Below are positions 4,284 to 55,290 of a stretch of 64,000 nt of DNA, in pieces; positions within the stretch are counted from its first letter, which is position 1, and every line of letters begins with the position of its first letter. The stretch comes from Adineta vaga. Its lineage: Eukaryota; Animalia; Rotifera. The notes under the pieces are model-generated. The model searched no databases, was not told the DNA's origin, and saw nothing but the letters and a program-made list of their open reading frames with translations. The translations under genes were made by a program, and so were the position numbers. The DNA lies in the NCBI GenBank assembly GCA_021613535.1, contig CP075493.1, positions 11,098,001 to 11,162,000 on the forward strand, written 5' to 3'.

Positions 4284-5780
4284 TTATCTATCAACAATAC
4301 GTATAGTTCGTAGTGATAGATCTTCCATACCGACAATAGAACTTCCTTTTTCAATCAAATGATGTATATAATCGAGATGACGTTGTTCCATTACCTCACC
4401 GGGAACCAATAGTGGAATACCTGGCGGATATGGAATAATATTCTCAGCCAATATATGTTCTACTGCATCACATAATGGTATCGTACGTGTTTTTGTTGCA
4501 AAATACGCATCACGTACACTGATTACTGACTTTGGTAGACCATTAGGTGGTTTAATAGAAGCATTATTAGAATCAGTGGTTTCAAACTTTTCTTTTGCTA
4601 GATTACGTAGAGCATCAAGTAGTTTATTTACTGTTGACTCTGTATCAGCCACTGTAATTGAACAAATGATATGTTTAAGATCAGCAAATTCGACTTCAAT
4701 GTCATATTGATTTCTAAGAAGAGAGCTAGCTTTGAATCCACTAAGACCTGTATTAGATACACGAATAATAAGTTTACTTGGATCGTAAGCAAAAATATTA
4801 TTGACACCAATTAATTCATCACCATAACACCAAAGATCATCCATTTGTCGAATCATAGTACGTGCATTTTGTGCAAGAACAATAACTGTAGAAAGACGCA
4901 TACGACCTTCGGTAGCCATTTGCATACGAGTGGCATCCAGTGAAGCCAATAAAATTGAACTAGGTGATGAACTCTGTAAAAGTGATAGTACTTGACCTAT
5001 ACGTGCTCGATTGACGAAACCATTGTCATTGACATGTAACATTGCTGATTGTGTAAGAGAACCCTGTGTTTTATGTGTACTCTGAACGATAATATCCGCT
5101 TTTAAAGCTACGGCTGATTGAGGTAAATCAGAATGAAAACCAAGATGTGAACCATGAGCTTCATCAACGAGAAGTGCAACACCATGTGTATGAGCCAGAT
5201 GACAGATAGCTGCTGTATCAGATAAAACACCATAGTAATTCGGAGAAGTTAAATGAATTGCAACGACATCCGAGTGTTGTTGTAGAAGATGTTTAATTGT
5301 TTCCACATTCACTGCCAACGGAAATTCAATATCAGGATGATACTCAGGTTCAATATAAACGGGTATGGCACCAGAAATCACCAGAGCACCATAGACAGAT
5401 CGATGGGAAGCACGCGACATGATGATCTTTTGATGAGGACCAGCTACACCCATTATTGCAGCCATATTACCGGCTGTTGAACCATTAATCAGAAAAAAAG
5501 TATGATCAGCACCATAAGCAGCAGCGGCAAGTTGTTGAGCTTCAAGTAATGCTCCTTTTAGTGAATGCAAATAATCAATTTTTGGATTCATTTCCACTAG
5601 ATCTGCTGGATGTAAATCAGCACCAAAAAATTCTTGCAATAATGGATGAGGTGATTTAGTTCCTTTATGACCAGGCATATGAAATGATGTTGGTTGACTT
5701 GTTTTTTCAATTATTAAAATTTCTAGAAATGGTATACGTGTCTGATCACATTGAACTGTAGAATTTGTCGTCATTTTCAT
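4284..5780 (-). CDS. PLP-dependent Orn/Lys/Arg decarboxylase, fold type I, wingless bacterial type (SpeA/YaaO-like); intronless; probable HGT
   Basis: Motifs FHMPGHKG, NGSTAGN, HRSVY, LVDEAHG, QSTHKT (PLP lysine), SSPS, PYPPGIPLLVPGE; first ATG at 5780 (alternative 5774). Confidence 0.92.
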   Translation of the reverse strand: MKMTTNSTVQCDQTRIPFLEILIIEKTSQPTSFHMPGHKGTKSPHPLLQEFFGADLHPADLVEMNPKIDYLHSLKGALLEAQQLAAAAYGADHTFFLINGSTAGNMAAIMGVAGPHQKIIMSRASHRSVYGALVISGAIPVYIEPEYHPDIEFPLAVNVETIKHLLQQHSDVVAIHLTSPNYYGVLSDTAAICHLAHTHGVALLVDEAHGSHLGFHSDLPQSAVALKADIIVQSTHKTQGSLTQSAMLHVNDNGFVNRARIGQVLSLLQSSSPSSILLASLDATRMQMATEGRMRLSTVIVLAQNARTMIRQMDDLWCYGDELIGVNNIFAYDPSKLIIRVSNTGLSGFKASSLLRNQYDIEVEFADLKHIICSITVADTESTVNKLLDALRNLAKEKFETTDSNNASIKPPNGLPKSVISVRDAYFATKTRTIPLCDAVEHILAENIIPYPPGIPLLVPGEVMEQRHLDYIHHLIEKGSSIVGMEDLSLRTIRIVDR

Positions 5781-6575
5781 ACAAGAATGCAAACGATAGT
5801 CAAACGACGCACGATATTTCAAATTCTGTCTTTTTTATCTTTCCTTTTTTATCTTATTTTACTCATTCTTTTGGAGTATAATTGTTGATAAATTCACAAT
5901 CAGAGAAAGCCATTTTTGCAGATATAAATTGTTCTTTATTCTCTCAATTACATTTCTGTATATCACTCGCACTATATGAAATACTGAGAGTGCAAATTTT
6001 TTTCTGTTTATACATCGTTTTTTCTACTTTTGTTTTTGATGTGAAGTTCTTTTTTTCTTTCTCTCGTTCCTTTCCATAAAAGTCCATATTTTGCTCTAAC
6101 ATACTATGTGTATATTACTGCTCTTTCTCTTCTTGTTTATCGTTACTATGGCCGACTTTTTTCTCCTCTGTTCGAATAAGTTTTATTAGTATACAGCCGA
6201 AAATAAAATAGCATGTTTAGTTCTTTGGTCATGTACATGTATTTATTTGATTTAGATAAAACTCAGAGTATAAAGTATCGCTTAATATATAGTAACTGTA
6301 TAGAATAGAATCAAATACCTGTAACTACCAGTAGCACTTTGTTCCAATCAAAACGAAAACTTTATTTATATGCATACGGTATAAAAAAAGGTATAGAGGT
6401 CGTCTTTGCTCAATATTTTTTTTATTGGTTGTTCTTTCTTTTTTTTATAACGTATATAAGCTTTTTATAGTTATTTTCTTCTTTGAGATATATCCTTAAC
6501 ATCAGTTTCCTGTGCATAAAAACACTCGAAGAAAACATAAAGAATTTGTATTGATTCTATTCTAGATTGTTAATC

Positions 6576-7457
6576 ATGAACAAAGTAGAAACGTGGGATT
6601 TTTGTGCACCAGAGTACGAAATTCTTGCTCAACCAGTGACAGGTCCATGTATCGTCAAATTGCTTGAACAAGTTTCTATTTTACCTGTTACTACGGATAC
6701 TGTTCAAACAATTAAAGTGATTGACGTTGCTGCTGGACCTGGAATTTTAAGTACATTGCTTGGGGAAGCCTACTCTCAAGCAGCACTTTTGGAGAAAGTG
6801 ACAATTCTATCAACTGATTTTTCACCGAATATGGTAGAACTTGCTGAGCGTTGCTTTGCTTTTCGCAATTGGCCCTTATCACAATTCTCTGCTCGTACTC
6901 TCGATGCTATGAATCTTGTTGATATTCCATCCGACCATTATACACACGCCTTCTGCACATTTGGTATTATGATGGTACCGAACGCTTCGAAAGCTCTTAG
7001 CGAGATGTTTCGTGTTCTTCAACCGTCCGGAACAATCGGTATAACGACATGGGAAAAAGTTGGTTGGATGCCTATTGTAACAGAATGTCTCGCACGAGCA
7101 AAAATGTCATCGAATAAAGAAGAGAATCCTGCTTTACCTCCTTCGGTTCTTCGTAATTGGTCTGACACATCTTATGTTCGAAAAATGCTTGAAGATGCTG
7201 GTTTTGTGAATGTACAAGTAAATATCTTTGAATCTCGATGGTCATTTGTGAATCATGATGAATGTGTTAAACAAATTACAGAAGCTCGCTGGATTACTCC
7301 ATTTCTCAAAGATGCCAATATGACAGATGAGCAAAGAGATAAATATAACAAAGTGGCATATGAAGTATTATTAGATATGGTTAACAAGAAACCCAACGAA
7401 GCATTCGACATACCAATGATTGCTATCATTGCTCATGGACAAAAACCGATGAATTGA
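6576..7457 (+). CDS. Class I SAM-dependent methyltransferase (UbiE/Methyltransf_11/25-like, small-molecule type)
   Basis: Motif I VIDVAAGPG, TDFSPNMV, LDAMNL, FGIMMVP..KALSEMFRVLQPSGTIGITTW; ATG at 6576 preceded by a 3' splice acceptor ending at 6565. Confidence 0.88.
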   Translation: MNKVETWDFCAPEYEILAQPVTGPCIVKLLEQVSILPVTTDTVQTIKVIDVAAGPGILSTLLGEAYSQAALLEKVTILSTDFSPNMVELAERCFAFRNWPLSQFSARTLDAMNLVDIPSDHYTHAFCTFGIMMVPNASKALSEMFRVLQPSGTIGITTWEKVGWMPIVTECLARAKMSSNKEENPALPPSVLRNWSDTSYVRKMLEDAGFVNVQVNIFESRWSFVNHDECVKQITEARWITPFLKDANMTDEQRDKYNKVAYEVLLDMVNKKPNEAFDIPMIAIIAHGQKPMN

Positions 7458-10130: not shown

Positions 10131-11686
10131 CTACGAAAAATTATAATCAGAATTAATTATTATCTGAACCGTAAATGTCATATCTGCTAAATCCTTTCAC
10201 ACACACCTGAAAATCTGAGTCTATGAGAGTCACCCTTACTACTTAGATCATATTAATTCGAATTCCTGGTCGCACATCTGGCAGGCAGAATCGCGAGCAA
10301 CAACACTTACATTACATTTTTCATTTGCCCTTCTTTTGTTCTTTATTACACACTCTCGTTTCACAGACGCATTCTGAAGATTTCATGTAATACAATCAAC
10401 TACACACATTTAACTATCGATAATATAAGTGAATATCATATTTGAATGGAAATAGTCATTCTTAGGCAAAAGAGAAATATCACATAAAGTAAAGGTATAA
10501 GCAGAATATGTTCTATTTACCTTTATTGGTAGTAATAGTCAATGTAATGATTGATTCATTCAGAGAGTATCTGGAAGAAGGTGTTGTATATATTTATCTA
10601 GTTGAATTCATGACAATGTGAAAAAATAAAGTTGAACATGTATAGAGACACGTTTCTCCCTATATGTTTTTTTTGTGTACTTAGACATTAGAGAGAAAAA
10701 AGTCGGAAATAAAACATTGATCTCTCTCCTATTAAAAAAACAAGATATATTCTTTATTTGAATATAAATGTTGATGTCAGAGATTTTTATTCATGAATTA
10801 TATATATTGATTTATTTTAAAGTGATTACTGCATATTAGAATGTTAGCTTCAGATTCAATCAAAATCAATATCTTGTCATGATTGGTTGTACCTCTGATT
10901 TTTATAAAACCATACATATATAAAAGTTATTATTGTAGTTAGAGAATACAGTGTGTTCCCGATTAGGAAACAATGTTGTCAAAACTATGTAGGGAAAATG
11001 ATTATAGATTACAGTTACGGTTCAGAATGTATCATAAAACGAATCATGTCGATCTCAGTTTTATTTGTATATAATAAGGACAAGAGATCAATGGACAAGA
11101 TTGTGATGATAACTAAAAATTCGTTTTAAATGTATCAGCATATAATGGATGAGATCTGATGATATAATAAACTAAAAATTATATATTGAAACATTTTTAG
11201 ATGTGACAAAATCGACATTCGATGATTTTCTAAATATACAGAAAACAAATGAGTTTCAATTCATTTCCATACAGTTTTATGAATGATTTCTTCACTTAAC
11301 TATTGTCACTGACCATGGAGATTCATTGAATATCAGAATTAAAAATTTTAATGCTATGTAATCAGATGAATCAGCAAACATTTACTATTCAAGTTTTACC
11401 AAGTATGAGCTAGTTGAAAATCGTAAATGGACTCTTCTGAAGAGGATGACATAACCTTACTGAGTTCTGAAGTAAGTCAATAGGATTGTATATGATCATC
11501 ACTTTATAGTCTTTTTTCGTTTATTATGTCTCACATGTATTTTCCTTTCCCATTTGCTCTTTTATAGGATGAATGAGTCATGCCTTCACACAATATGAGT
11601 TTTATCAGTTTAACTTTCGATAAAAATGAGAGAAAAAAACACATGAAGAAAAGGAGAAAATGGATCTATGTTAGGCATTTGTTTTC

Positions 11687-12685
11687 ATGAGTATGATCGA
11701 CGATAGTGAATATGTGGATTGTGACATACAACGATGGCAAAATATGATGAAAGAAACGTATGCAAATCTTTCTCCGTTTGATCCAACATCAATTGATGAT
11801 CTTCGACGGGTAACTGCAATTGTTCGTGCACCATGGACTGAAGGTGGGCCATCAATGACACGTATCGAAGAAAAATTTGTTGGTGATTTTAAAACTCGTA
11901 TTCGTATATATTATCCTATCGATGGTAAGATTTGTCCAGCACTCCTCTATATTCATGGAGGTGGTTACACTATCTTCAGTCTTGATACACACGATCGATT
12001 AATGCGAGAATATGCGGGTCGAGCCAAAGTAGTCGTCATTGGTGTAGATTATAGTCTATCACCAGAAGTAAAATATCCACGAGCGATCAACGAAATTGTA
12101 TCCATTGTTCAATGGTTGAGAAAACAGAATTCATTAGAATTAGGTATTGATTTGAATCGAATAGCTATTGGTGGTGATTCTGCTGGTGCAAATCTTACTA
12201 TTGCAACAAATCTACAGTTACGCATATTGAATCAACCAGTTGTAAACGCCCAATTACTTAATTATGGAGTTTATGATCGTGTTAGACCTCAATCGAATTC
12301 ATATATCCGTTATGAGGGTCCTAAATATCGATTAAATGCTGATGAGATGAAATTTTTTCAAAATAATTATATTCGAAATGAGGAAGATTTCGATGATCCG
12401 CTTGTGTGTCCTCTTCATGCTGATCTCCATGGTCTACCGCCAAGCTTTCTTACTATTGCAGAATGTGATATACTGGCTGATGAAAATCGAGCTATGGCCG
12501 AAGCATTACGTAAAGCCGATGTTGAAGTTGAAGAACATGTGTATCATGGAGTTACGCATAGTTTTCTTGAAGCTGTCCGTATTGCAAAAATCAGTAATAG
12601 AGCTTTGGATGATGCTTCTGCTTGGCTCATGAAGCAACTGTATCAATCAAACGAACGATATAGTTCAAAAATTGAAAAAGATTGA
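11687..12685 (+). CDS. Alpha/beta hydrolase, hormone-sensitive lipase (HSL) family, acetyl esterase Aes-like; intronless; probable HGT
   Basis: HGGG oxyanion motif, VDYSLSPE, GDSAG nucleophile elbow, AECDIL (Asp), GVTHSF (His). Confidence 0.92.
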   Translation: MSMIDDSEYVDCDIQRWQNMMKETYANLSPFDPTSIDDLRRVTAIVRAPWTEGGPSMTRIEEKFVGDFKTRIRIYYPIDGKICPALLYIHGGGYTIFSLDTHDRLMREYAGRAKVVVIGVDYSLSPEVKYPRAINEIVSIVQWLRKQNSLELGIDLNRIAIGGDSAGANLTIATNLQLRILNQPVVNAQLLNYGVYDRVRPQSNSYIRYEGPKYRLNADEMKFFQNNYIRNEEDFDDPLVCPLHADLHGLPPSFLTIAECDILADENRAMAEALRKADVEVEEHVYHGVTHSFLEAVRIAKISNRALDDASAWLMKQLYQSNERYSSKIEKD

Positions 12686-14138: not shown

Positions 14139-16799
14139 TTATACTAAAGATAATTCTAAACCATATGTTGGTTTTCGCAACTGAAGGAAAAGGAAGCAGG
14201 ATAACGACTGAACCTTCACGCGCATTTTTCGAGCTACTAACTGCCATAGAAGTATTGCAATGTCTTTCAGACAAATAGACAAATCAGGATGCTGTTTTAC
14301 TAGTGTTTTCTTCCATATCTGATAAGCCTCTCGATACTTGCATAGAGCTTCTTGATAATTGCCTCTCTTATGATGTACTCGGCCAAGTAAATGAATACAT
14401 TTACCTTCGTCACGATGTTGAGTATTGGAAAAAATACGTCCATAGATTTCAACTAAATAAGCATGTTATTATTAAACAAAAGTTCATTTTGACATTTACT
14501 TACTTGCACGATAGAAGCATTTGATAGACTGATCATAATCTTCTAATACCAAACAAACTTCACCTTTATTTTTCCATGTATAAGCTGCATTAATATGATC
14601 ATACTTTAGTGACTGTAAAATAGCGAATGCTTTACTATATTGTTCGCTGGCTTCACTATATTTCTTTAAGCGATAATACACTTTACCAATATTATTATAA
14701 CGAACAGCAAAATATGGACTTTTCTCTTCAGGATAAAAGTATTGATAAATTTCTTGACTTTTAAGATGTTTAGTCAAAGCTTGTTCATAGTCACCCTTTT
14801 TGTATAAATACTTGCCGATATAATTAAGAATAAGACCAATCTGAAGACTTTTACTTGGTAGAACGTGTGTGGCAATATTGAACGCTGACTCAACGAATTC
14901 GAGTGCTTTATCATATTGACCCATGTGATATAGTGGTAGTGACATATTCATATGGGCACTACTTAAAGCTGGATTATCGAATGGCTGTTCTTCCTGAATG
15001 ATATAAAGTGCTTGCTGGAAGTCTTGAAAAGCTAGCTCATCCGCACCTAGCTGATATTGTACAAATCCACGGGCACTCAACATCTCTGCATAGCAAACAT
15101 GATTCGACATACTAACTTGTTTATATTGATCGGACGCCTTGGCAAGAACGTGTAATGCTTCTGCGTATTTACATTGATGACGGTAGGTGCGACCAATATA
15201 GTTATTGATCTGAGCGGAAATGCCAATATCTGGAGGATTTTGACTAGTACAAATACGAAGAGCCATGTTGAAGTGCTCTAAAGCACGGTCATACTCAGTA
15301 TGAAGCGCAAAACAAGCTCGACCAAGACCGAAAAGAACGTTGGCATTGTGTGGTATTCGATTGTTAAGATTTTCGAAATATAGCTTCGATTTAGTGAATT
15401 CTCCCATATCAAAAAACAGATCTCCAAGCAAAATAAGTATATTATCATCATTTATCGACGCGCGTTTTTTTTCAATATATTCTTTTGCTATAGTAGCACC
15501 TTCGTTTGATGCTGTCATACGACATATCCATACTTTGGTGTCGTTATCGAATGTCATTGATTCTATTTTGAACACACTTGCTAAGTCAAACAAAACTTCT
15601 TCTTCGTCTTCAAAGTGGCTCTGTGATTCTATATCTGCCAATACAATATCCGATTGTCTGAGATCCACTAGAATCTCATAAATTACAGCTTCACAATCCA
15701 GGATTGCTAGTGGATGAGTTTCAATACCAGCAAACATCTCGGCCACTTCTCGATTCCAACTTGTAGATAAAAATCCCTTTGCCGAGATCAATTGACCAAT
15801 GTTATCCTTCAAGCGTTGAATTTCTGCATGAGATTGTTTCTTTCCACGGTATACTTCGAAAAAAGTGCGATCGCTTTTTTCTCGCAAGCGTTTGCTCTGC
15901 TCTGCTATGCATGTACATAGATCAGCAATATAGAAACCATAAGTATTAAGTGCGTCAATATCATCCGTTAGAAGAGCTTTGTTAACCAATCGTGAAAGAA
16001 AACAATCCCTGGTATACCACCATATTGCTTCATTATGCGTATAGCACTGATCAAAATTGTCGATAGCCTTCATGTGTGTTTCATTATCTCGATAGTATTC
16101 TCGACATTGTTGTAACATTTCCCGTTTACTAATAAACTCTTCTGAATCATTATTTCTGGGTATCTTCTTTATAACTTCTTTTAATAATTGTCGCCAGACA
16201 AAAGATCCACATTCGCGATCCAGACTATGAATTGATTTTAATTTTCTTCGGTCGTAAAGTGCAAAAACAGCTATATGCTTTTCTATCTCTCGTATTGTTT
16301 TAACAGTATATTGTTTCAAACTATCTTGATTAGTAAAAATGCCTTTTACTTTGGTATTTTTTATATCGCGTATTGATGATTCGTATTTGCTTGCGTTCAT
16401 GCAGAAAATGAGAATGGTATCAACATGTCGAAGCGAGTGTGCTTTTTCAAGCAGAGTTTCTGTTGCACATGTACCAGAGGTAATCAAAAGAACTCGTTCG
16501 TTTTTCGAATTTTCCATCTGAGCAATGCAATCTATTTCGTTAGAGCAAAGATGAACAGTGTAATTGAGACGATGAAGCATTGTTTGTGTTTGCTTTATGG
16601 CATCAGTATATGTACATTCATGTTTATTCACTTGATTATCATACCAGATAATTGTGATGGTTTCTCGATAAATACGCGTGTTAAGTCCACAAGATCCTTT
16701 ATCGTTATTTTTCTCTCTAAATAATGAACGTTTTTTCGAAGATAGCAATTTTTCTATTTCTTCATTGGCACCTAAATTGAGATCATGTTTGTTTGCCAT
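14139..16799 (-). CDS. Receiver-like domain + R-S-E type ADP-ribosyltransferase + TPR array; one intron (about 14453-14503)
   Basis: N-terminal IIWYD...LLITSG...ILIFCMN module; ART motifs WWYTRD, VYRG, FLSTS, FEDEEEVLF; about 42-aa TPR repeats; the spliced last exon IEIYGRIFSNTQHRDEGKCIHLLGRVHHKRGNYQEAL ends at TAA 14139-14141. Confidence 0.88.
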
Positions 16800-17599
16800 C
16801 AATTTGAATGAACGATCAATATTTAGCTAAAAAATAAATATCGAAATTTTTTTATTATCATTCTGAATAACTACTTTGTAGCAAAAATCTATATAAAATC
16901 TATTTTATTTGTTACATTATCATTTTGATTTTTCTTTCTGGTATCTTTTAAAAATACATTAGATAACGAATTATTTTTTGGTACAAATGAGTCTATGATA
17001 ATAGCGCGACAAAAGCCAATTTTTAAAACATGATATGGTAAGGTACCTATGTACAATTGACTTACCCTGTAATGTGAAAGGTAAACAGATGCATCTTTTG
17101 CTGTTTTATAAGACAGGAATATCCAGAAAAAATTTCAGAACTTGTTTCTGCGTTTCACAACGAGAATAAACAACGTGTATTACTATGGATAAAATGGAGA
17201 TTTGACAATTTCTTGATTGAAGAGTGATTGTTTTTATTTACAGAATGACAGGTTGTTTTTATTCTGTTCTTGACGGCAGAAAATAAAGAAAAAAATATAT
17301 TTGTTTTTCGTCCATATAAATCGATTGTGAATATATACATATATGTAACTGTTCTTAGAACGATTCTAGTGTTATATTTCTTCAATATGAGTAATAAATT
17401 AAAGATTTACATTTGTTTAGCAGCACAAAACTGATGTTCTTTTTTTTTCTTCTGTCTCGGATAAGTTTGGACAAATGGACTGTAGCATCTTCGCGCATTA
17501 CTCGTTTTCTATACGATTACAATTTCCAATAAAAACAAGTTGTTCTTTTTTAATTTCAATACCCGACTAAATAACGACACATCCAGCGTGTTGTCACAG

Positions 17600-18973
17600 A
17601 AGCAATAATAAAGAATAAACAATGTCATAACAGAAGGTAGCAAACGATCATTTGTGTTTCCGTATGAAATGACCAAACTGCATCAAGAAAAGCTTCAGTC
17701 ATATTCAGATCGATTAATTTTGCCTGATATTCCATCAAATGACAAGGCTCAACATAACTTGTTCTTGAAAACAAAAGGATTTGATTTTTTACCAACATTT
17801 TTCGCTGTCTTACCAAATGGACAATTGACCGATAGTTATGATCGATATATTGAACTACTTGAAACTATAGATCCAAAAACTTTGGAAAAAAATGTGCACA
17901 ATATTAAGGTAATTTATAACATTCGCCGAGTAATATTGGTCTATTTTGTATACAATCTGGAAATCTATTCAATTCATCATTATTTTTCTTTATTCACATT
18001 TTTACATAGAATCGAAAAAAGAATTCATATCTACTTTTTATGTCATCTTTTCAAGAATATTCAAAAATAATATATAACATTTCTCCCTTTATAGACATTT
18101 GCCCGAACTATCATACAAACAATCGATCAGCTATATTTTGAACATAATATGATGGCTTTTGTCAAACTCGATGCAAGTGGTACTAGTGGTTGGTCAAATC
18201 TGAGTCCCAACCTACATTCTATAATATATGATTGTGAAGAAACTCTCGAAAAACGCATTGAATATTTGTCTGATTATATTGAAAATAAAGTTATTGGCAC
18301 ACGACTACCTACCACGGCTATCGTCGAAGAATACATTCAACCCCAAAAACGTTCTGGTAGTATTGATGCCGATTATACTGTATGCGGTTTTGTTCTCGAT
18401 GGTATGTTTTATCCCACATCGATTAGTCTCTGTCAATCAAGTGATGCAAAATATATTGCAATGGTAGGGATAAATTTTATAGTTGTTGCAAAGAAATCAA
18501 ACAAAATTTTTAATAGAAAAAAAGGACCATAGTATTTAAATTTTTCATTATTATTACATAACTAATTGTTGAGAAAAACACAATATGTACTTCTATATTT
18601 TCTAGTGGAATGCATCTTCACCTGTCGATCTGATTGATAAAGTTGAGGAGTGGAAACAAAAGTTCTTCTTCTCATGTCAGAATTTGAACAGAATGCAAAA
18701 CTGAATAACATCGAATTGTTTCAAGTATACATAAAAATGTGTCAACGCTTAACTCAAGCCTATGGAATGTATGTATTTTCTACCGGTTTCGGTTATTTTG
18801 GTAAAAGTATTGAAGGTGATGATTTTCTCAAGTTTAATATTCTTGTTCATCCAAGATCACTGACAACTATAAGCAATGAAACAAAACAACAAGTTTTACC
18901 TAGAGATAAACATCAAGATAAAGTCATAGAGATCATTCGTAGCGTGGCTACTGAAGTTCTTCAATATAAATAA
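17600..18973 (+). pseudogene. Degraded multi-exon gene with ATP-grasp-like motifs
   Basis: Exons about 17600-17908, 18094-18463 and from 18606; AFVKLDASGTSGW and IVEEYI resemble ATP-grasp signature segments; stops or frameshifts upstream of 17654 and in the last exon. Confidence 0.4.
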
Positions 18974-19380
18974 TAACACTACATGAAAACGTATAAATAG
19001 TAGATAATTCTATAATTACCTAGTATCAAACTATTCAATACTAACATACATGAGGTGCAAGTGGTCCAAAACTCAGATGAAAATCATCCGGTCGAATATT
19101 TTTTTCTAATCTTGTGAAATAAAAATTGATAAAGAATGAAATTCGTTTCCAAAATCTCGAAGTATGTTAAAGATGACATAACGTTTAGATCGATTTTGAA
19201 TGTAATATTTCTATTTGATAAAAAAAATCTAAAAGTACACGTGAGCTTCTCTTGATTATTCATATTTGAAAAGGATTTACCTGTATGATTCAGAATAAGG
19301 GAAGAAAAATATTTTTCCCGTTTTGACTCGTAGTTGTTTTTTCATTGCAATTTACGTACATACATTGTTTTGTAAAAAGC

Positions 19381-20256
19381 ATGTCAGTTGATCAAACTCG
19401 TCTAAAAAATAAATTCTCAGCAACAACATCATGTTTCCTTCTACCATCATTTCGTCGTCCAAGTTACTTAGACATTATTCGAATGAATAATGATACGTCA
19501 ACGATAAATACATCCGATATATTTCGTCAATGGACTTTAGAACATGAATCATCAGTTTATAAAAAAATCAATGATAGTCTTCTATTTGATAATTATGATA
19601 TTTTAAAAGAAAATGCTGTTTATATCAATAGTTTACGTCGTGCTATTACAGAAAATCTTCTTCAAGATTCAATAAAAGTCTATCGAAATATTGAACTTCG
19701 TCCGGATTTTGTTCAAAATGAATACAAAGAAAATCAAACATTTTTATGGCCAACATTCACGAGTACATCACGTAATAAAGATGTTGCATCAACATTTGGA
19801 AATTATACATTTGAAATCGATGCATCCTTAAATGATTATACCTATCGTACAGATATTGGTTCATATTCTCAATATCCATATGAACAAGAAATTTTATTTT
19901 ATCCTTATAGTGGATTTCGTATAAAAAGAATTTATACCGATGCTCGAATAATTCAATTGGAATGCGTTGACACATTAGATATTGAATCATCTTCAAAAAC
20001 ATCAATTCCATCACAAATCAAACTTTATGATAAAGATAGACAGATGTTTGTTTATTTGTCTAAAGATGATGAAAACTTATATTGGTGCACTGTTGAAGAA
20101 CCAGAGAAATTATATATTATTGCAGATAATACCAATGGATATTGGGATTCACCTCATCGATATCATCATGAAAATGGATATTTTCTTTATAGAGGAGATT
20201 CTCTATGGGAAGAATATAAAAATCATCATTATTTTGCGTCATTTCAACAAATATAG
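19381..20256 (+). CDS. Stand-alone R-S-E type ADP-ribosyltransferase with a short C-terminal beta-rich domain; intronless
   Basis: KVYRNI (R), FTSTS (S-T-S), YEQEILFYPYSGFRI (E-x-E); C-terminal extension LYDKDRQMFVYL...LWEEYKNHHYFASF. Confidence 0.88.
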   Translation: MSVDQTRLKNKFSATTSCFLLPSFRRPSYLDIIRMNNDTSTINTSDIFRQWTLEHESSVYKKINDSLLFDNYDILKENAVYINSLRRAITENLLQDSIKVYRNIELRPDFVQNEYKENQTFLWPTFTSTSRNKDVASTFGNYTFEIDASLNDYTYRTDIGSYSQYPYEQEILFYPYSGFRIKRIYTDARIIQLECVDTLDIESSSKTSIPSQIKLYDKDRQMFVYLSKDDENLYWCTVEEPEKLYIIADNTNGYWDSPHRYHHENGYFLYRGDSLWEEYKNHHYFASFQQI

Positions 20257-21141
20257 GATCAAATTGTGTAACATATAAAAGATCGACTTCACTTATATCT
20301 GCTGTTGAGAAATGTTTTATGATTAGTTTTCATTTTGTATTCCTAAACCGTATAAGAAGACGCATAGTTATTATTGTTTGTTGGACAAGCATCGATATTA
20401 ATGAAAGAACAAATTTCGACGAGATATTGGATATATATATTGCTGATCACATAAACAATCGATTTCAAACATATGAATTGGTATTACTGGAAAATAAATT
20501 TGTCAATTACTTATTCAAATTGATGCCAAGTGATTGCTTTTAGAACTAAGTACGTTTGCTGTTCTTTCCAATGTATATAATTAGTTAATAAACTATAAAC
20601 GAAACTATATAATTTGTACCAAAGTTGAAAGCGTCAATGTAAATAGATACTAAATATATAACAGTTTTCAGCGTATTTGATCGATTTTGAATTTTAAAGA
20701 TCCGTTTGAATACCATACTCCTTTTTAATTACGGATAACGTTTTCATCTAATATTTCGTAGTAAGCATGATGCAGGTATGGGTTACTTTAAACTATCTAG
20801 ATGGCTGTTATTTGTGATTCATTGGACTTTATTTACACTCGTGAATACAATTATTTAGATTTTTTTCTTCGTTGGAAGAAAGAAATGCGACTTCCTTTCT
20901 TTACTCTTAAAATGTATGAATTGTAAAGTACGCAGCCATCATGCAAAGCGTGAGTTATTCTTTTTCTTTCTTGGAAAATTCCAAAAGAATTTCTATATAA
21001 TTACCATTACTCACAGCAGTATAGATGCTACATAGATACTACCGTGTGTATACATAGCAACTACGAATTTTAACAAAATAATATTAAAATCGCTATTCTA
21101 AAATATTGACTTTTAATAGTTTGTTTTATTACTATTTTCGT

Positions 21142-23716
21142 ATGGATAAGTACACTGGATACCGCTTCATCATGATCTACGGAGTTGGCTTACTAATCTA
21201 TTACATCATTCAGCGATTTTTCACTGTCAAAAAACAGGTGAGAGTCTATTTTTTCTTATAAAATATTAGTAGATATACCTCGTTTTCTATTTCATTCGAT
21301 ATATTAGAACCATGTAACTATAGTGTGGCTAGATAAAACACATGATGATTCGACTATGATGATGATAAAATATATAAACAAAGATCGTTTAATTACGTTC
21401 ACATCTTCGGACGAATGTATAAATTATATAATATCATTAAAAACTACAAATGAAGCAATTTGTTTGATAACATCAGGTTCATTGGGTGTCACTGTTATTC
21501 CATCAATCCATAATATTGATCAAATTGAATCAATAATTGTTTTCTGCATGGAGAAAACAAAATATGAATTCATGCAAAAACGTTACAATAAAATTCGACA
21601 TGTTTTGAATACTTACAATGAATTAATTATTCAATTACAAATCTATCTGAAATCAATCGATCGAGATGGAACGACAGTTAATATATTTAATATAGAAAAT
21701 CTAAAGAAATTACGTAATTGCAATTCAGTATCTAAAAATTCTCATCTACCTTATACAATATTTAATGATGACAAACAATGTTCAATGCGTGATATATCCA
21801 AATCAGATACTTTCTTTCTATGGCTTAAATTACTTACAAGTGTTCTACAGAAAGTTCATCATACACAAGATACTATGAATGAAATGCTGGATAAATGTCG
21901 AGAGTATCATAAAGATAATATTGAAGAATTGAATAAAATAGACGAATTCAAAAGAACCTATAGAAAAGAAGACGCCATCTATTGGTATACAACACCAACA
22001 TTTGTTTCAAAGTTAATTAATAAAGCATTATGTACAGAAGATTTTCGTGCACTCTATATTTGTCGAGCGTACATTGCAGATCTATCGGAGCAATTGCATT
22101 TAGAATACGAACAATACAAACAATTATTGATTGATTTTGAACAACCATTAAATCAATGGACAGTTTACCATGGTCGAGCAATGTCCAAAGATGAATTAGA
22201 CATATTGTGTAATAAAAAAGGTCAATTGATTTCATTAAATGGATTTTTATCAACAAGTCGAAAAGAAGAAGTTGCTGATTGTTATTCAAAAGAAGTTATG
22301 TTTATTATTCAAACAACGTTTGATTTAACTCATGGATGTTTTGCTCATGTAGCACCTATGAGCCAATTTCCATCTGAAGACGAAGTTTTATTTGATTTGG
22401 CATCAGTTTTCAAAATTCTTGATATAAAATATGATCGAACTACTAACAAATGGAATGTTTATCTTATAACAACGGATGAAGGAACAAGTGTCGTACAAGC
22501 ATACATTGATTCGGCTGAGATTGAAGCTAATGAAACAAATGTTGATTTTATATTTGCACGATTATTAATACAAATGGGTGAATACAGCCTTGCACATGAT
22601 TATTTAGATAAACTTTTTGCGATGTTATCGAGCGAACACGATAATCGTGATATAGCGCTTGTATACTACTATAGAGGCTTGATTTTCTATCGCGAAGGAA
22701 ATTATGCTCAGTCTATGATCGAATATGAAAGAGCACTTACCATTCAACGAAAAATATTTCCGGAAGGACATTCTGATTTGGGTGAAAGTTTAGGTGGAAT
22801 CGGCTTACTATATGATAATATGGGACAATATAATCTAGCTTTAGAAAAACATCTTGAAGGTTTAGCAGTAAGTGAAAAAACACTTCCCAAAGATCATGTA
22901 CATATTGCTGAAGCATTAAATAACATTGGTTTGTGTTACGATCGTATGGGCAAATTCGAATTAGCATTAGAATATGATATTCGCGCATTAGAAATGAAAC
23001 GACGCCTTTTCTCACATGATCATCCAGATATAGCCACAAGTTTGAATAACATAGGCTTAGCATATTATAATCATTATGATTTTGAAAAAGCGCTTGACTA
23101 TCATCAACAATCATTGGCAATGAAGGAGCAATGTTTGCCATCTGATCATTCGGAATTAGCTGTATCTTATTGTAATCTTGGTCTTGTTCATCTAGCTCTA
23201 AGTCATTTCGATGAAGCACTTATGTACTATATGCGCGATTTAACAATAAGTGAAAAAACATTGCCTGATAATCATGCTGAAATTGGTATTACACATCATA
23301 ATTTAGGTCAAGTATATCGAGCAAAAGATAGAGGCAGTGATTTAGCAGTAAAACATTATCAGACAGCTATAGATATCTATATGAAAACTTTACCACGACA
23401 ACATCCATACATCGGATTTTCATTAATGTATATAGCGGAAGTGTTATCCGAACAAAATAATCTAGAAGCTGCATTTCGGTATGCAACTGAAGCGGTAAGC
23501 ATTGTTGAAGCAACACTTTCTGATGATCATCGTCGACGAGCAGAAGCAACATATATTTTAGCTATTATCTATAAGAAAATGCATCAAATCGATAAATCAT
23601 TAGAATACGCATATAAAGCGCGAGATATTCAACTAAGAACATTGGATGGCAGTCACAAAGAAGTACAAAAAACATTAGAATTAATTCAAAGTATTGAACA
23701 GACAGATCATAATTAG
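21142..23716 (+). CDS. Membrane-anchored receiver-like + ART-like + TPR protein; exons 21142-21237 and 21308-23716
   Basis: Exon 1 encodes MDKYTGYRFIMIYGVGLLIYYIIQRFFTVKKQ (one TM helix) and splices in phase 0 to NHVTIVWLD; ART motifs VYHG (R to H), FLSTS, SEDEVLF; 42-aa TPRs LPxDHxxIAxxLNNIG. Confidence 0.88.
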
Positions 23717-24313: not shown

Positions 24314-25363
24314 ATGAATGTTGAGCAGTCGAATAGAAGCGATATCGTCAATACAGTTGACTTTGTTTGAATTTATATCTTTTTACGTTCTATCTATCTT
24401 ATCGTGTTTGGAGTTGGTTTAATTGGAAATACATTTAACTTGATTGTTTTTTCTCGTAAAAAATTTCGTTCAAATTCATGTTCGATTTATTTTATGGCAT
24501 ACTCTTTCAATAACTATTTGGTACTCATTATTGGTCTGTTTGTTCGATCACTTACGGATGGATTTCTTCTACCATTAGAAAATCATATACTTATGTGGTG
24601 TAAGATTCGTCGATATTTGACTCATGTTAATTATCTTCTTTCGTCATTTTTACTTACGATGGCCTGTATGAATCGATATGCTCGTGTTCGTCGAGCTGAA
24701 CTCAATAGGAATAATCAGTTTTATGTACTTCTATGTGAACGTCGAACAACATGTCAAATAATTCTTTTACTGATTATTTCGTGTCTTCTAATTAATTTAC
24801 ATATTCCATTTCTATTCGAAATTAATCAAGGTAAATGCTATACACGATCTGGTCTGTATCGTTATGTTTTTGCGATATTCTTTTTGATTTTCTATGGTCT
24901 CTGTCCAATTCTAATTATGATTATTATTAATGTGAATACTGTTATTTCTATACGGCATATTCGACGTCTTGTACATCCGATGATTTCTCGTGGAGAATTC
25001 TATTTTATAGGTCTTGTTATTATTCATTGTATCTTCAATGCTATTCTCACACTTCCTTACGTTATCAACAAATTTATCGAGGATTATGCATTTCCGTCTA
25101 CTGTACCAATAGGAACACGGAAATTAATAGGTACTATTGTTCATCTGGCCTTTTTCATGAATCATAGTATTTCATTTTTTCTCTACACACTTACAACAAC
25201 GGCCTTTCGTCATGAACTTATTTGTGCTTTGAAAGATTTTAGGAGTAGTATCTGCAGAGTTCGACAACAATCAAATGTAGATAGAACTAAACGACGTGAC
25301 ACATTGATTTCCATTCTTTCTTTCTCATTCTCTTCAGTTATTCGAATAAATGACAATAATTAG
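24314..25363 (+). CDS. Orphan class A GPCR with in-frame TGA at codon 19 (24368-24370); possible pseudogene
   Basis: MNVEQSNRSDIVNTVDFV*IYIFLRSIYLIVFGVGLIGNTFN...; CKIRRY, MNRY, FFLYTL...FR; remainder open. Confidence 0.75.
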
Positions 25364-26733
25364 CAACAATATCAAAATAAATATCCACTGTTTCAGACAT
25401 CGAAGAAATTGATACCCATTCGTCGACTCCATGAACATTTCCTCCAATAGGTCCAAATCCACAAATTGTTGGAATACCACTATCAATTAACATATATCCT
25501 TCATTAGCTGGACCACATCCATTTGTTGTTGGAGTTATTTTTAGTATTTTTTCAACAGCATTAACACAGGAATGGACGAGCGGATGATTTGTATCAATGG
25601 TCGCAGCTGGTAACTGATTTTTAATTGTAATAAAAGCTGATAGTCGAGTAGATGAAGATAATTCATTTCGCCCATTGATTGTCATTGTGACAATATCTTC
25701 AATTTTATGTAAAATATCATCAACAGATGTCGATGGCATTAGACGAATGTCAACCATAGCTGAAGCATGTGACGGTACGACAGATACGAAACCACCACCA
25801 TTGAAGATCGTACCTGGTGTTACAGTTAATGTTAGATTAGGAAATGATGGATTTTGATCAGCATTCCATGGATAATCTTCTAAGGCAACTAATATTCGAG
25901 CTAAAGCAGTGGTCTATCGAAAAGAACAAGAACATCATGTTTCGAATAGTTTATAAGAATTCACAAACCGCATTTGCTCCTTTCTTTTTTGTATTCCATT
26001 CTACACTTCCCGTGTGTGCATTCTCACCTTTTACATCAATTGATAATCTTAATAAACCTCGATGTCCAATAGTCACATTCACACCTGGATAAACATAGAT
26101 AGCACCTTCACCTGAAATCAATTTCTTATCTAATAAATAACGAACACCAATTGTTGAACAAGCTCCACTTTCTTCATCAACAACACATGCTAATTGAATA
26201 CTAATATTTAGTTTCTGTTCTAAAAGTTGTCATTTTTCTCGAAAAGATATTAATCAATCAATCAAATTATCTATATTCCTACCATTAATTCGTTGTTGCA
26301 GTAAATATAATGTATATAAAGCACATACGATTCCACCTTTATTATCACATGCACCACGTCCAATCATTCGTTGAGTTTTCTCGTCAATCATACCAGCAAA
26401 TGGTGGAAATGACCATTGAGTTTCATCTTCAACATTCACCGTGTCCATATGACCAACAAATAAAAATTTCGAAGGACCCTTTCCTTACATAATTCCATAG
26501 AATGATATATTTTTTCTTATCAAATAATGCAACATACCAGCAGTTACAATTACATTTGGTCGATGTTCTTGATCGGGTGCTGATATCAAATCATATTTTA
26601 ATTTTAAACGTTCACATTCAAGACAAATTCGTTCAGCAACTAAACGTTCAGCGTCAATTCCACAGACTGATCGTATCCGTATCAAATCAGATAAAAACGA
26701 AATCATCGATGGTGTGAAACTAGTAGTCATCAT
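25338..26733 (-). CDS. M20 family metallo-amidohydrolase (ArgE/DapE-like), bacterial type, with three spliceosomal introns
   Basis: Spliced product has GHMDTV, GRGACDNKGG, VVDEESG, GHRG, GENAHTG, VVPSHASAMVDIR, GFGP..GNVHGVDEWV; introns at about 26485-26537, 26220-26282 and 25914-25968 restore a full frame. Confidence 0.88.
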
Positions 26734-35186: not shown

Positions 35187-36827
35187 TTAGTTCAAATATT
35201 CTTCTAATACCAATGTGGATAGAGGAGGAATAGCCAATCGAAATAAAGTTGCCCGTCCATGATGATACATTACTTTAACATTTTCATTTTGATACAATCC
35301 TGATCCACCATAAATAGGATTATCGGAGTTAAAAATTTCAATAACTTTCTGAAGTTGTGTCACATGTGAATCCCACATTGGCAATGGTATATCGTAGGAT
35401 CAATAAGCACGATTAGAAAAGTTATGAATACCTCGATGATAGGCCACAATAAGATTAGATTTGTATTCATAAATCATTGAAAAATCTTGTTCACCATTTT
35501 GCTAGAATTCTTGCTGATGGAGATAGAGTTTATTTAAATCAGCGATATATTCTTGCATTTTTCCATGTAGTGTTGAAGAATCGCTCAATGACCAATCGAC
35601 ACTGGATTGACCCTGATGAAATCGATGAAACCATGAGATTGGTTGAGCAAGTTCATCACCCATATGTATCATCATGTCCTTGTGCTGAATAGAGAATATT
35701 TAAAACTTTTTGTTGCCAATGATTAGGTCTTTCATGATAATGTGTACGTAAAAGATTCATTGCATCATAACATCAACCAATATTCCATTTTAAATCAAAA
35801 CCCATTGTTTTACATAAACGTGGATAACCTTCAGTTTTGTTCGGCAATCGATAGAACACCAGGATAATATCGATGAATTGTATCATTGAGTTCACGAAGA
35901 AATGTAATAGCTCGAGAAATATCATTCGAATTACGTAGTATCATTTGACTAACAGCATCAAAACGAATTTCATCAAGAAAATATAGAGCACTATAGCAAA
36001 TAACAAACGATATGTTTCTTCTTTATTATGATCTAAATAAAGTGTTCCCCATCGTGATGAATCACTTGCATACAAATCAGTACCATCGAATTCATGAAGA
36101 GAAACAGAAAACGAATGTGATGCATGATAGTGATGAAAATGTGTAGGAATCCAATCGATTATAACACCAATATCATGTTGATGTAAATAGTCGACAAAAT
36201 ATTTAAAAACATCACATTGACCATTATCATGGTAAGGCGCAAAAAAGTTAGATATTTGATAGCCACGTTCAGTTTTTCGAGAATGTTCAAGCAAACCATA
36301 TACTTCAACATGAGTAAATCCCATTCGTTGACAATATGTAGCCAATTCAGGTACTAATTTTCGATAATTTATTGGTTGAAAGACACCATATTTCCATGAT
36401 TTCGGTTGCATTTCATAGATTGATAATGGCGATGAAAGAGGATCGATTAACGTACGTTTCATCATCCAATTCTGATCCTTCGATTGATAAGCTGTTCGAT
36501 CATAAACAATTGATTGTACTTGACCAACTTCTGATATATCAATAACAGAGAAACTTACCGGATCTATTCGTAACATTCGGTGACCATTATAACCATTAAC
36601 AAGATAGCGATAAGTACGATCGGTGGTGCTTGATTACTAATGACTTGCCAAAGATTTGTATTCTTTTTTTGCATTGGTAATCTCATTTCTCCATGACCAT
36701 ATGCAGTTAAAATAACCCATACCATTTTAGCATTTGGTGCATATACAGAAAAAGTTGTTAATTTCGTCTCTTTACAATACTGTGCACCGCGAATTTCATA
36801 AAGTTTAGGATGTGTATTCGACGCCAT
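35187..36827 (-). pseudogene. glgB: Bacterial-type 1,4-alpha-glucan branching enzyme (GH13) pseudogene, intronless
   Basis: FSVYAPNA, SIYEM..SWK, MGFTHVE, GYQISNFFAP, IGVIIDWIPTHF (bacterial DWVP.HF type), RFDAVSQM, GFDLKWNIG, EIFNSD...YGGSG, IPPLS; several frameshifts and a short deletion before the nucleophile. Confidence 0.85.
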
Positions 36828-53948: not shown

Positions 53949-55290
53949 ATGATTTATGTCCTTATTCTTATTTTTACTCTTGTTCCTCATGTTCTAACTA
54001 TGAATCCGATCAGTGCATTAGGTTATTCAGCTTTATGGAAAAATCACAGACGAAATCAACCGTCATCAGCGATATCAATTCAAAAAGAAACGCCACTTCC
54101 ATCGGTGGCAGCAATTCAAAAAGAAACACCACTTTCATCACCAATTCAAGTTATTGATAATAATCAACTAATCTGTTCGCCACCACAATCCTGTATCAAC
54201 AATTTTCACTCACCAACAAACGATGTCCGCGAAGATACTCCGAAATCTATTGAGAACGAATCAATAGAAGAACACGATGAAACATCAACATCACCACCAC
54301 CAGCGATGACTCGTAAGTATTTCAAACATCTGACGATCAATTATTTCTCTATAAAACATCCTATCAAATGAATTTTAGTCGAAGAGTGTCTTGAAGAAAA
54401 AGCAAGAATTGATCATCTTCTAGGTCAGCGTGCCAAACTCGGTCCATTCTTAATCGAATCTACCGAACGACCAGTTATAAATAATATGACTGAATTTAAA
54501 GGTTCAATTTCCATCCATTCTTTGTTTCTTTGATTGAATCGTTTTAGCATCTGCCGAAGCTATTCGATCGGACAGCAAAATAAGGTCAAGATGTCATTTG
54601 TACGATGATGTTGATTCTCTTGTGCGAGATTTTCGCGCTTATGAATTAAATCGTCTCGATGTTCTTGCTATTCGTCTGTATACAACAGCCATATCTTACG
54701 TTGTTAATGAAGCATTACGTAATTATTCTTTTTTTGGCATACCTATACCGACTACTTACATACCATATATCTATGCTCTTTTAAATGCCTTGGCCAAACT
54801 CGATAGCAATAGATTGACAAATGAGGTTTATTTAATGATATTATAATTCTTAATGAACTATTTTTGTTAGGCTTATTGTGTATCTTCGATGGTCGCGATA
54901 TATTGAGCGTTCGACTCCCGAAAAGACAGAGGCATTAAAACCAATACTCGATCTTCATCAACCCGGAGCCCTTGTAATGTACCCAGCATTTACATCAACC
55001 TCAATGAATGACAGAGCTAAAGGTCTTTGGACAGGTAAAAAATTGTTATTACATAAATACAGCAGAATAGATAGTAAACGTCTGATTCAGATGGATTCGA
55101 ATGTCGTTTCGAAATTCAAGCAAGAACGACTATCACAATAGAAGAATTTGCAGTTCATCCTGATGAACATGAAGCTGTCTTTCCACCTGGAACTATATTT
55201 CATGTAACCGAACGTGATTATCCGTTTCTTGAAATGGAAGAAGTGATGCCAAAAACACTTGAAGCAAGACGAGCTGAATTACCATGTTAA
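53949..55290 (+). CDS. Secreted R-S-E type ADP-ribosyltransferase-like gene (5 exons), apparently frameshifted at the catalytic-Arg region
   Basis: Signal peptide MIYVLILIFTLVPHVLT, Pro/Ser-rich spacer, AIRLYT...VNEALR, PAFTSTS, DEHEAVFPPGTIFHV; the exon 3/4 join gives AYC and then goes out of frame. Confidence 0.68.

What the first reader, a model, noticed from the sequence alone, without database searches (positions are those of the whole stretch)
14139..23716. Head-to-head pair of receiver-like/ART/TPR proteins flanking a solo ART: candidate paired sensor-executor immune locus
Seen: two divergently transcribed genes share the architecture (beta/alpha receiver-like module)-(R-S-E ART)-(42-aa TPR array), and an intact stand-alone ART lies between them. 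Known: R-S-E ARTs are toxin-type NAD-consuming enzymes, TPR arrays act as ligand sensors in fungal and bacterial NLR-like receptors, and plant NLRs often work as divergent sensor/helper pairs. Inference: this is an NTPase-free animal immune module in which TPR binding gates ADP-ribosylation, with the two paralogs taking different roles.
Basis: partly seen in the sequence, partly recalled or inferred. Interest (0 to 1): 0.78.

Follow-up and report, generated by a model that had tools for sequence, protein, structure and literature searches.

The report
Rotifer ADP-ribosyltransferase cluster, not a pair
Three distantly related genes for toxin-like ADP-ribosylating enzymes sit close together in a bdelloid rotifer that has hundreds of such genes; they are likely independent enzymes rather than a sensor-executor pair, although the family's blend of a bacterial-type receiver fold, enzyme and repeat array appears unstudied.

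Summary
The window is bdelloid rotifer DNA; genes A and B match Adineta vaga I4U23_003595 and _003598. The architecture is real. Both have a receiver-fold domain (Z 13.3, no phospho-Asp), an ART domain (Z 15.4 to HopU1) and TPRs, and an intact solo ART lies between them. Corrections: B has His in place of the canonical Arg, a second gene lies between, and the start codons are 4.3 kb apart. The pair reading is not supported. A and B are 27% identical and not sisters. Outside A. vaga, orthologues of A, B and the solo ART shared no contig in my look-ups (an indirect test). A. vaga has 431 gene models with this activity term, and ART genes cluster generally (12 of 44 have another within three genes; a fourth ART lies in this window). 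After fungal infection the term is enriched only among down-regulated genes. Best reading: a local cluster of independent members of a huge rotifer family, each likely a self-contained, TPR- or receiver-gated arginine mono-ADP-ribosyltransferase. The family design, and B's conserved membrane-anchored His variant, are what deserve study.

The parts
14139..16799 (-). Gene A, 869 aa: pseudo-receiver (about aa 46-185), helical linker plus ART (R318, STS345-347, E399-x-E401), TPR array (about aa 452-830). Coding intron 14453-14503.
   Evidence: identical over aa 40-450 to I4U23_003595 of Adineta vaga, same length; intron join seen in contigs
16827..17065 (-). 5' UTR intron of gene A (GT..AG); places A's transcription start beyond 17066
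   Evidence: joint 16826/17066 in one run; ends checked
17620..18973 (+). Intervening spliced gene, ATP-grasp-like by recalled motifs only. The window copy lacks about 590 nt of 5' sequence and about 190 internal nt that transcript-type contigs carry.
   Evidence: GT..AG joints at 17906/18093 and 18462/18605, loose 5' end at 17620; loose letters absent from the window; no informative Pfam, NCBIfam or PDB hit
19381..20256 (+). Solo ART, 291 aa, single exon: R102, STS128-130, E168-x-E170, plus a C-terminal beta domain (aa 209-291) of no assigned family
   Evidence: Vis E 1e-7, HopU1 E 9e-5; Z 14.6 to Vis; C-terminal domain best Z 7.7
21142..21237 (+).
   Evidence: hydropathy 1.68; joint to exon 2 in 3 of the 8 runs laid; similar leaders in orthologues P0009 and P0011
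21308..23716 (+). Exon 2 of gene B (whole protein 834 aa): pseudo-receiver, helical linker, ART with His320 for Arg, STS347-349, E389-x-E391, and 42-aa TPR array
   Evidence: (98% to I4U23_003598)

Best explanation
The locus is a cluster of three distantly related genes of a very large bdelloid rotifer ADP-ribosyltransferase family, and the three likely work independently rather than as a sensor-executor pair. Shown: the architecture, the folds, the motifs, spliced transcripts of A and B, separate ancestry of A and B, family size and general clustering. Inferred mechanism: each receiver-ART-TPR protein is a self-contained, intracellular, NTPase-free switch. The 42-aa TPR array would bind a protein ligand or substrate. 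The non-phosphorylatable receiver would act as an allosteric or docking module. The ART would then transfer one ADP-ribose from NAD+ to an arginine (E-x-E motif; established ARTC knowledge). A is an ordinary, faster-evolving, presumably active member. B is a conserved, probably membrane-anchored member whose Arg-to-His change likely alters or weakens NAD binding. The solo ART is a separate lineage that likely uses its beta domain for targeting. The genes are probably neighbours because they collect in the same gene-family-rich, foreign-gene-rich regions. Whether the family serves defence or endogenous signalling is open; I put defence at about 50%.
For: A vs B is 27% identical. In a tree of 225 of 237 family members each has its own supported clade, and B ranks 112 of 224 by distance from A. 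Two genes and 4.3 kb separate the starts (locus tags 3595 and 3598). Contig lengths listed for orthologues of B (29 values, 13 of them 40 kb or more outside A. vaga), of A (15 values) and of the solo ART (31 values) share only the A. vaga chromosome. NCBI accessions of B and solo-ART relatives in the same Rotaria and Didymodactylos species are thousands apart. Family size is 431 of about 66,000 gene models in A. vaga and 366 in A. ricciae (PMC11258130), and 3,799 clusters at E<=0.001. For clustering, 12 of 44 PF01129 genes have a neighbour within 3 genes, including the adjacent ART-TPR genes FUN_004086/004087 (PMC12220480 Table S2), and a fourth ART lies at 54.5-55.3 kb of this window. Catalytic motifs are kept family-wide: R, S and E in 207 of 229 sequences that cover all three. 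Folds: HopU1 Z 15.4 (rmsd 3.6, 188 aligned), ART2.2 Z 15.1, receiver Z 13.3 (rmsd 3.6, 120 aligned). Asp occurs at only 0 and 2 of 191 sequences at the two beta-3 end positions.
Against: A trio within four genes is rare under uniform placement (about 0.03 per haploid genome), so some local cause is needed and functional linkage is not excluded. The synteny test is indirect. Only the longest contig per sequence is shown, 10 proteins per gene were looked up, the homologue search is word-limited, and only one A-clade protein came from a named Rotaria assembly. No activity, ligand or target is shown, and TPR gating is an analogy. For the defence role: GO:0003956 appears only in down-regulated sets after fungal infection (19 of 431 at 24 h, FDR 1e-12). 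B's TPR array is 65-77% identical across genera, and the arrays show no high internal repeat identity, unlike fast-shuffling immune sensors.
Confidence: 0.62

Rival explanations
1. One reading: A and B are a linked sensor/executor immune pair (B with the degenerate motif as sensor, A as executor), with the solo ART as a third component.
For: Divergent orientation and shared architecture. B has a non-canonical His and a membrane anchor while A is canonical. A trio is rare under uniform placement. Transcript-type contigs cover parts of all three genes in the same runs.
Against: Not adjacent and no shared promoter region. Not sister paralogues. No shared contig among orthologues outside A. vaga. 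ART genes cluster generally. B-clade proteins were found in several named Rotaria and Didymodactylos assemblies, A-clade in one.
Confidence: 0.08
2. The family, and B in particular, does endogenous signalling rather than defence: domesticated arginine mono-ADP-ribosylation of rotifer proteins (stress, metabolism, membrane traffic), with TPRs as substrate selectors.
For: B is 74-82% identical in its ART region across Adineta, Rotaria and Didymodactylos. The activity term is down-regulated in infection and protein ADP-ribosylation is down in spaceflight (PMC12220480, passage). An ART fused to an ADP-ribosylglycohydrolase exists in A. vaga (FUN_001375).
Against: Hundreds of divergent paralogues, mostly 27-45% identical, and concentration near the start of the gene table (29 of 44 in the first 1,400 genes) fit conflict-driven families better than housekeeping ones. 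TPR family expansions in A. vaga were already suggested to serve defence (PMC3846280, passage).
Confidence: 0.22
3. The ART domains are mainly NAD+ glycohydrolases or nucleic-acid-directed enzymes rather than protein-arginine transferases; ligand binding would deplete NAD+, as TIR and Sir2 immune effectors do.
For: The R-S-E fold also supports NAD hydrolysis (recalled). A receiver-like N-terminal module with a repeat sensor resembles effector-sensor conflict proteins (PMC8195603, passages).
Against: E-x-E is kept in 227 of 237 family members and is the arginine-acceptor motif of ART2.2, ExoS and HopU1 (recalled). The closest structures are protein transferases.
Confidence: 0.08

Closest known systems
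ARTC / R-S-E mono-ADP-ribosyltransferases (HopU1, Vis, Tre1, C3, VIP2, vertebrate ART2.2)
   Same: Same fold (Z 12-15), STS and E-x-E motifs, Arg in A and in the solo ART.
   Different: Intracellular multi-domain animal proteins with a receiver-fold domain and TPRs; no signal peptide seen; B has His for Arg; hundreds of paralogues.
Bdelloid 'TPR repeat containing protein-like' / TPRA / VIP2 / NAD(P)+-arginine ART-like GenBank entries and UniRef 'NAD(P)(+)--arginine ADP-ribosyltransferase' of Adineta, Rotaria, Didymodactylos
   Same: Database names for rotifer ART and ART-TPR proteins; the UniRef entries are direct homologues.
   Different: Names only. I found no paper that describes the receiver-ART-TPR architecture.
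CheY-like receiver and pseudo-receiver domains; kinase-independent receivers of bacterial conflict systems (PMC8195603)
   Same: (beta-alpha)5 fold, Z up to 13.3; Asp at the end of beta-1 in 140 of 159.
   Different: No phospho-acceptor Asp (Ser-Gly instead), Cys at the end of beta-4; Atlas look-alikes are eukaryotic, mostly Rotifera; fused to an ART.
Paired plant NLRs (RRS1/RPS4, RGA4/RGA5, Pik-1/Pik-2) and fungal NLR-TPR receptors (recalled)
   Same: Effector plus repeat-sensor logic; opposite orientation of two related genes.
   Different: No NB-ARC or NACHT domain, no shared promoter, no conserved linkage found, no high internal repeat conservation.
AACRNL / NEURL4-type ART expansions in free-living eukaryotes (PMC12957317)
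   Same: Toxin-derived ART amplified in animals, including Rotifera (passage).
   Different: H-Y-Y diphtheria-like class with a ubiquitin-like N-terminus, not R-S-E with receiver and TPR.

Membership tests
ARTC / R-S-E mono-ART | ART fold | tested here: met
   B model Z 15.4 to HopU1; solo ART Z 14.6 to Vis; A by PF01129
ARTC / R-S-E mono-ART | Arg on the first strand: gene A and solo ART | tested here: met
   R318 and R102
ARTC / R-S-E mono-ART | Arg on the first strand: gene B | tested here: not met
   His320; His in 13 of 14 orthologues covering the site; 21 of 237 family members have His
ARTC / R-S-E mono-ART | STS motif and catalytic Glu (E-x-E) | tested here: met
   all three proteins
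ARTC / R-S-E mono-ART | NAD+-dependent transfer to an acceptor | not testable with these tools
   needs an enzyme assay
CheY-like receiver domain | (beta-alpha)5 fold | tested here: met
   (Z 13.3, rmsd 2.4-3.6, about 120 aligned)
CheY-like receiver domain | Phospho-acceptor Asp at the end of beta-3 | tested here: not met
   I-T-S-G in A and B; Asp in 0 and 2 of 191 at the two positions
CheY-like receiver domain | Cognate histidine kinase in the genome | not tested
   no genome held
NLR (STAND) receptor | Central NACHT or NB-ARC NTPase | tested here: not met
   no such Pfam family in A or B, and no room for one between ART and TPR
Paired sensor/helper receptors | Immediately adjacent, head-to-head, shared promoter | tested here: not met
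   two genes and 4,343 nt between the starts; separate 5' ends
Paired sensor/helper receptors | Linkage conserved in related species | tested here: inconclusive
   no shared contig or neighbouring accession outside A. vaga, which points against; indirect, no flanking DNA read
Paired sensor/helper receptors | Physical and functional dependence of the two proteins | not testable with these tools
   needs co-immunoprecipitation and co-expression
Fungal NLR-type TPR sensor arrays | High internal repeat conservation allowing repeat shuffling | tested here: not met
   23% (B) and 10% (A) identity at lag 42; no 126-nt tandem array

The most novel reading that the evidence does not exclude
Bdelloid rotifers built, from bacterial-type parts (a response-regulator receiver fold and a toxin ART), a family of hundreds of NTPase-free intracellular immune receptors in which TPR binding switches on ADP-ribosylation. 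The conserved, membrane-anchored His variant B is a shared helper or decoy for many fast-evolving sensors, acting in trans rather than as a linked pair.
Probability: 0.2. Interest if true: 0.78.

Novelty: new variant of a known kind. Interest (0 to 1): 0.4.

Why it matters
The pair itself is probably not special. The family may be. Animals generally lack two-component receivers and keep only a few R-S-E ARTs (recalled), whereas these rotifers have hundreds, many fused to a receiver fold and TPRs. If they are ligand-gated, they would be an NTPase-free receptor class in an animal and a lead on how asexual bdelloids cope with pathogens. Gene B gives a tractable entry point: conserved across genera, spliced, predicted membrane-anchored, with a fixed active-site change.

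Tried and rejected
No whole genome was held, so family counts come from published tables, not from my own scan. The direct synteny scan of metagenome contigs with the B alignment gave 1 locus of 1,446 nt from 245 pattern matches, too short to show neighbours. Prokaryote genomes and viral contigs gave no confirmed relative (0 of 15, 0 of 10, 0 of 131 pattern matches); these pattern scans are insensitive, so the origin is untested. Co-folding of the receiver+ART parts of A and B returned 'no answer' (score 0.00, alignments not used); this is no evidence either way. No listed run was on record as RNA; I rely only on GT..AG joins in contigs, and contig depth cannot rank or compare expression. The Atlas gave no usable hit for the solo ART's C-terminal domain, and its structural matches (Z up to 7.7) are only generic beta barrels. 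PADLOC gave only a generic TPR model. The FUN_ gene numbers of PMC12220480 do not correspond to I4U23_ numbers, so I could not read expression values for these three genes. That table is cut when stored, and Supplementary Data 1 of PMC11258130 was too large to read; both may bear on gene-level expression. The PMC10809525 supplement held nothing. Earlier-finding look-ups gave nothing on this family. Rejected: A and B as a recent inverted duplication (27% identity, not sisters); a phosphorylated two-component receiver (no Asp); a bacterial contaminant (spliceosomal introns, rotifer hits).
Full report
Identity. The window is bdelloid rotifer DNA. Gene A is identical over the searched region to Adineta vaga I4U23_003595 (869 aa) and gene B is 98% identical to I4U23_003598. 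All named close hits are bdelloids (Adineta, Rotaria, Didymodactylos). No whole genome was held.

Anatomy. Gene A runs 16799 to 14139 on the minus strand with a 51-nt intron; gene B runs 21142 to 23716 with a 70-nt intron. Both introns, a 5' UTR intron of A (16827-17065) and two introns of a gene at 17620-18973 appear as GT..AG joins in public contigs. Those runs are not on record as RNA, but the joins show spliced molecules. A and B both score PF01129 above cut-off followed by TPR families, with no NTPase family. A model of B's first 401 exon-2 residues (pLDDT 86.8) has an N-terminal (beta-alpha)5 domain that matches receivers (Z 13.3, rmsd 3.6, 120 aligned) and an ART domain that matches HopU1 (Z 15.4, rmsd 3.6, 188 aligned) and ART2.2 (Z 15.1). 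The receiver lacks the phospho-acceptor: Asp occurs in 0 and 2 of 191 sequences at the two positions ending beta-3, where Ser-Gly is the rule. Atlas look-alikes of this domain are eukaryotic, mostly Rotifera, with no Pfam family. The solo ART (19381-20256) has R102, STS and E-x-E, matches Vis (Z 14.6, rmsd 3.8, 165 aligned) and ends in a beta domain of no assigned family. It is homologous to the family ART (hhalign 99.2%) but forms its own orthologue set of 23 hits.

B has His320 where R-S-E enzymes have Arg; 13 of 14 orthologues covering the site share it, against 209 Arg among 237 family members. B's first exon encodes a hydrophobic segment. Of 137 family members with a leader of 17 aa or more, 4 have such a segment and 3 of these are B and two orthologues. 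The two start codons are 4,343 nt apart with two genes between. A's divergent neighbour is really the middle gene, whose window copy lacks about 590 nt of 5' sequence and about 190 internal nt present in transcript-type contigs.

Is it a pair? A and B are 27% identical. In a FastTree tree of 225 of 237 family members (12 dropped for low coverage), A and B each sit in their own supported clade (0.994, 0.995), and each ranks 112 of 224 by distance from the other. I compared contig lengths listed for orthologues: 29 values for B, 15 for A, 31 for the solo ART. Only the A. vaga chromosome is shared, although 13 B-bearing contigs outside A. vaga are 40 kb or longer. Accessions of B and solo-ART relatives in the same species are thousands apart. 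This test is indirect: only longest contigs are shown, 10 proteins per gene were looked up, and A-clade proteins came mostly from unnamed assemblies.

Is it chance? Supplementary Data 3 of PMC11258130 (rows seen; method passage) counts 431 gene models with arginine-ART activity in A. vaga against a whole-genome background of about 66,000 models, and 366 in A. ricciae; the A. vaga set likely counts both alleles (recalled). A full HMMER search found 3,799 clusters at 50% identity. Under uniform placement a trio within four genes would be expected about 0.03 times per haploid genome, so uniform chance does not explain it. But placement is not uniform. In the stored part of Table S2 of PMC12220480 (44 PF01129 rows), 12 of 44 have another ART within three genes, against 1.4-2.2 expected, and 29 of 44 lie in the first 1,400 genes. 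One directly adjacent ART-TPR couple is listed there. A fourth ART lies at about 54.5-55.3 kb of this window. The trio fits general ART clustering.

Mechanism. Shown: folds, motifs, splicing, family size. Inferred: each protein is a self-contained NTPase-free switch. The TPR array would bind a ligand or substrate, the pseudo-receiver would serve as an allosteric or docking module, and the ART would modify an arginine (E-x-E in 227 of 237; motif meaning recalled). Defence is plausible from the size and divergence of the family and was suggested for A. vaga TPR expansions in general (PMC3846280, passage). Against it, the activity term is listed only among genes down-regulated after fungal infection (6 and 19 of 431 at 7 and 24 h; 8 of 366 in A. 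ricciae; test sets were foreign-gene candidates). B's TPRs are 65-77% identical across genera, and the arrays lack high internal repeat identity. These data concern the class, not these three genes.

Literature. Nine of my ten searches addressed ART or TPR families in rotifers or animals; none returned a paper describing a receiver-ART-TPR family. The library lacks most subscription papers. I saw passages of PMC3417536, PMC3482391, PMC3846280, PMC8195603, PMC12957317, PMC12220480 and PMC11258130, supplement rows of the last two, and an empty supplement search of PMC10809525. The proteins are named in GenBank and UniRef as TPR-like or arginine ARTs.

Verdict. Observation partly confirmed; paired sensor-executor locus unlikely (about 0.08). 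The family is a new variant of a known kind and looks unstudied; gene B is its most distinctive member here. Interest 0.40.

Noticed in passing
window 54538-55290 (+): A fourth ART-like gene in several pieces (helical 'VVNEALR' part, TSTS, E-H-E motif); NCBIfam XopAI E 5e-6 for the last piece.
   Followed up: partly
window 17620-18973 (+): The ATP-grasp-like gene is incomplete in this sequence compared with transcript-type contigs (5' part and an internal piece missing), and DNA contigs break between 17351 and 17634. It may be a deleted allele or an assembly gap.
   Followed up: partly
window 21142-21237 (+): B's membrane-anchor exon is absent from the public A. vaga model (701 aa) and from most Rotaria models, which start at an internal Met.
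   Followed up: yes
window 20008-20253 (+): C-terminal beta domain of the solo ART with conserved Trp, Tyr and His residues; some relatives replace it with a WWE domain or low-complexity tails.
   Followed up: partly
window 17066-17094 joined to 16826 (-): A short upstream reading frame of about 10 codons in A's spliced 5' UTR.
   Followed up: no
window 4284-7457, 11675-12685, 25338-26229, 35941-36633: Several bacterial-looking, mostly intron-poor genes (amino-acid decarboxylase-like, methyltransferase-like, alpha/beta hydrolase, M20 peptidase, glycogen-branching-like) amid GPCR-, F-box-, NHL- and Kelch-like genes. Only the hydrolase and peptidase were checked by Pfam.
   Followed up: no
homologues P0068, P0071, P0087, P0088, P0092: The same N-terminal/ART region occurs with other C-terminal parts by precomputed Pfam (NHL repeats, Kringle, PF00280 ribosome-inactivating domain, PF05978), so the module is shuffled beyond TPRs.
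   Followed up: no
PMC12220480 Table S2, FUN_005112 and FUN_001375: A. vaga also has an ART fused to a NACHT domain and one fused to an ADP-ribosylglycohydrolase.
   Followed up: no
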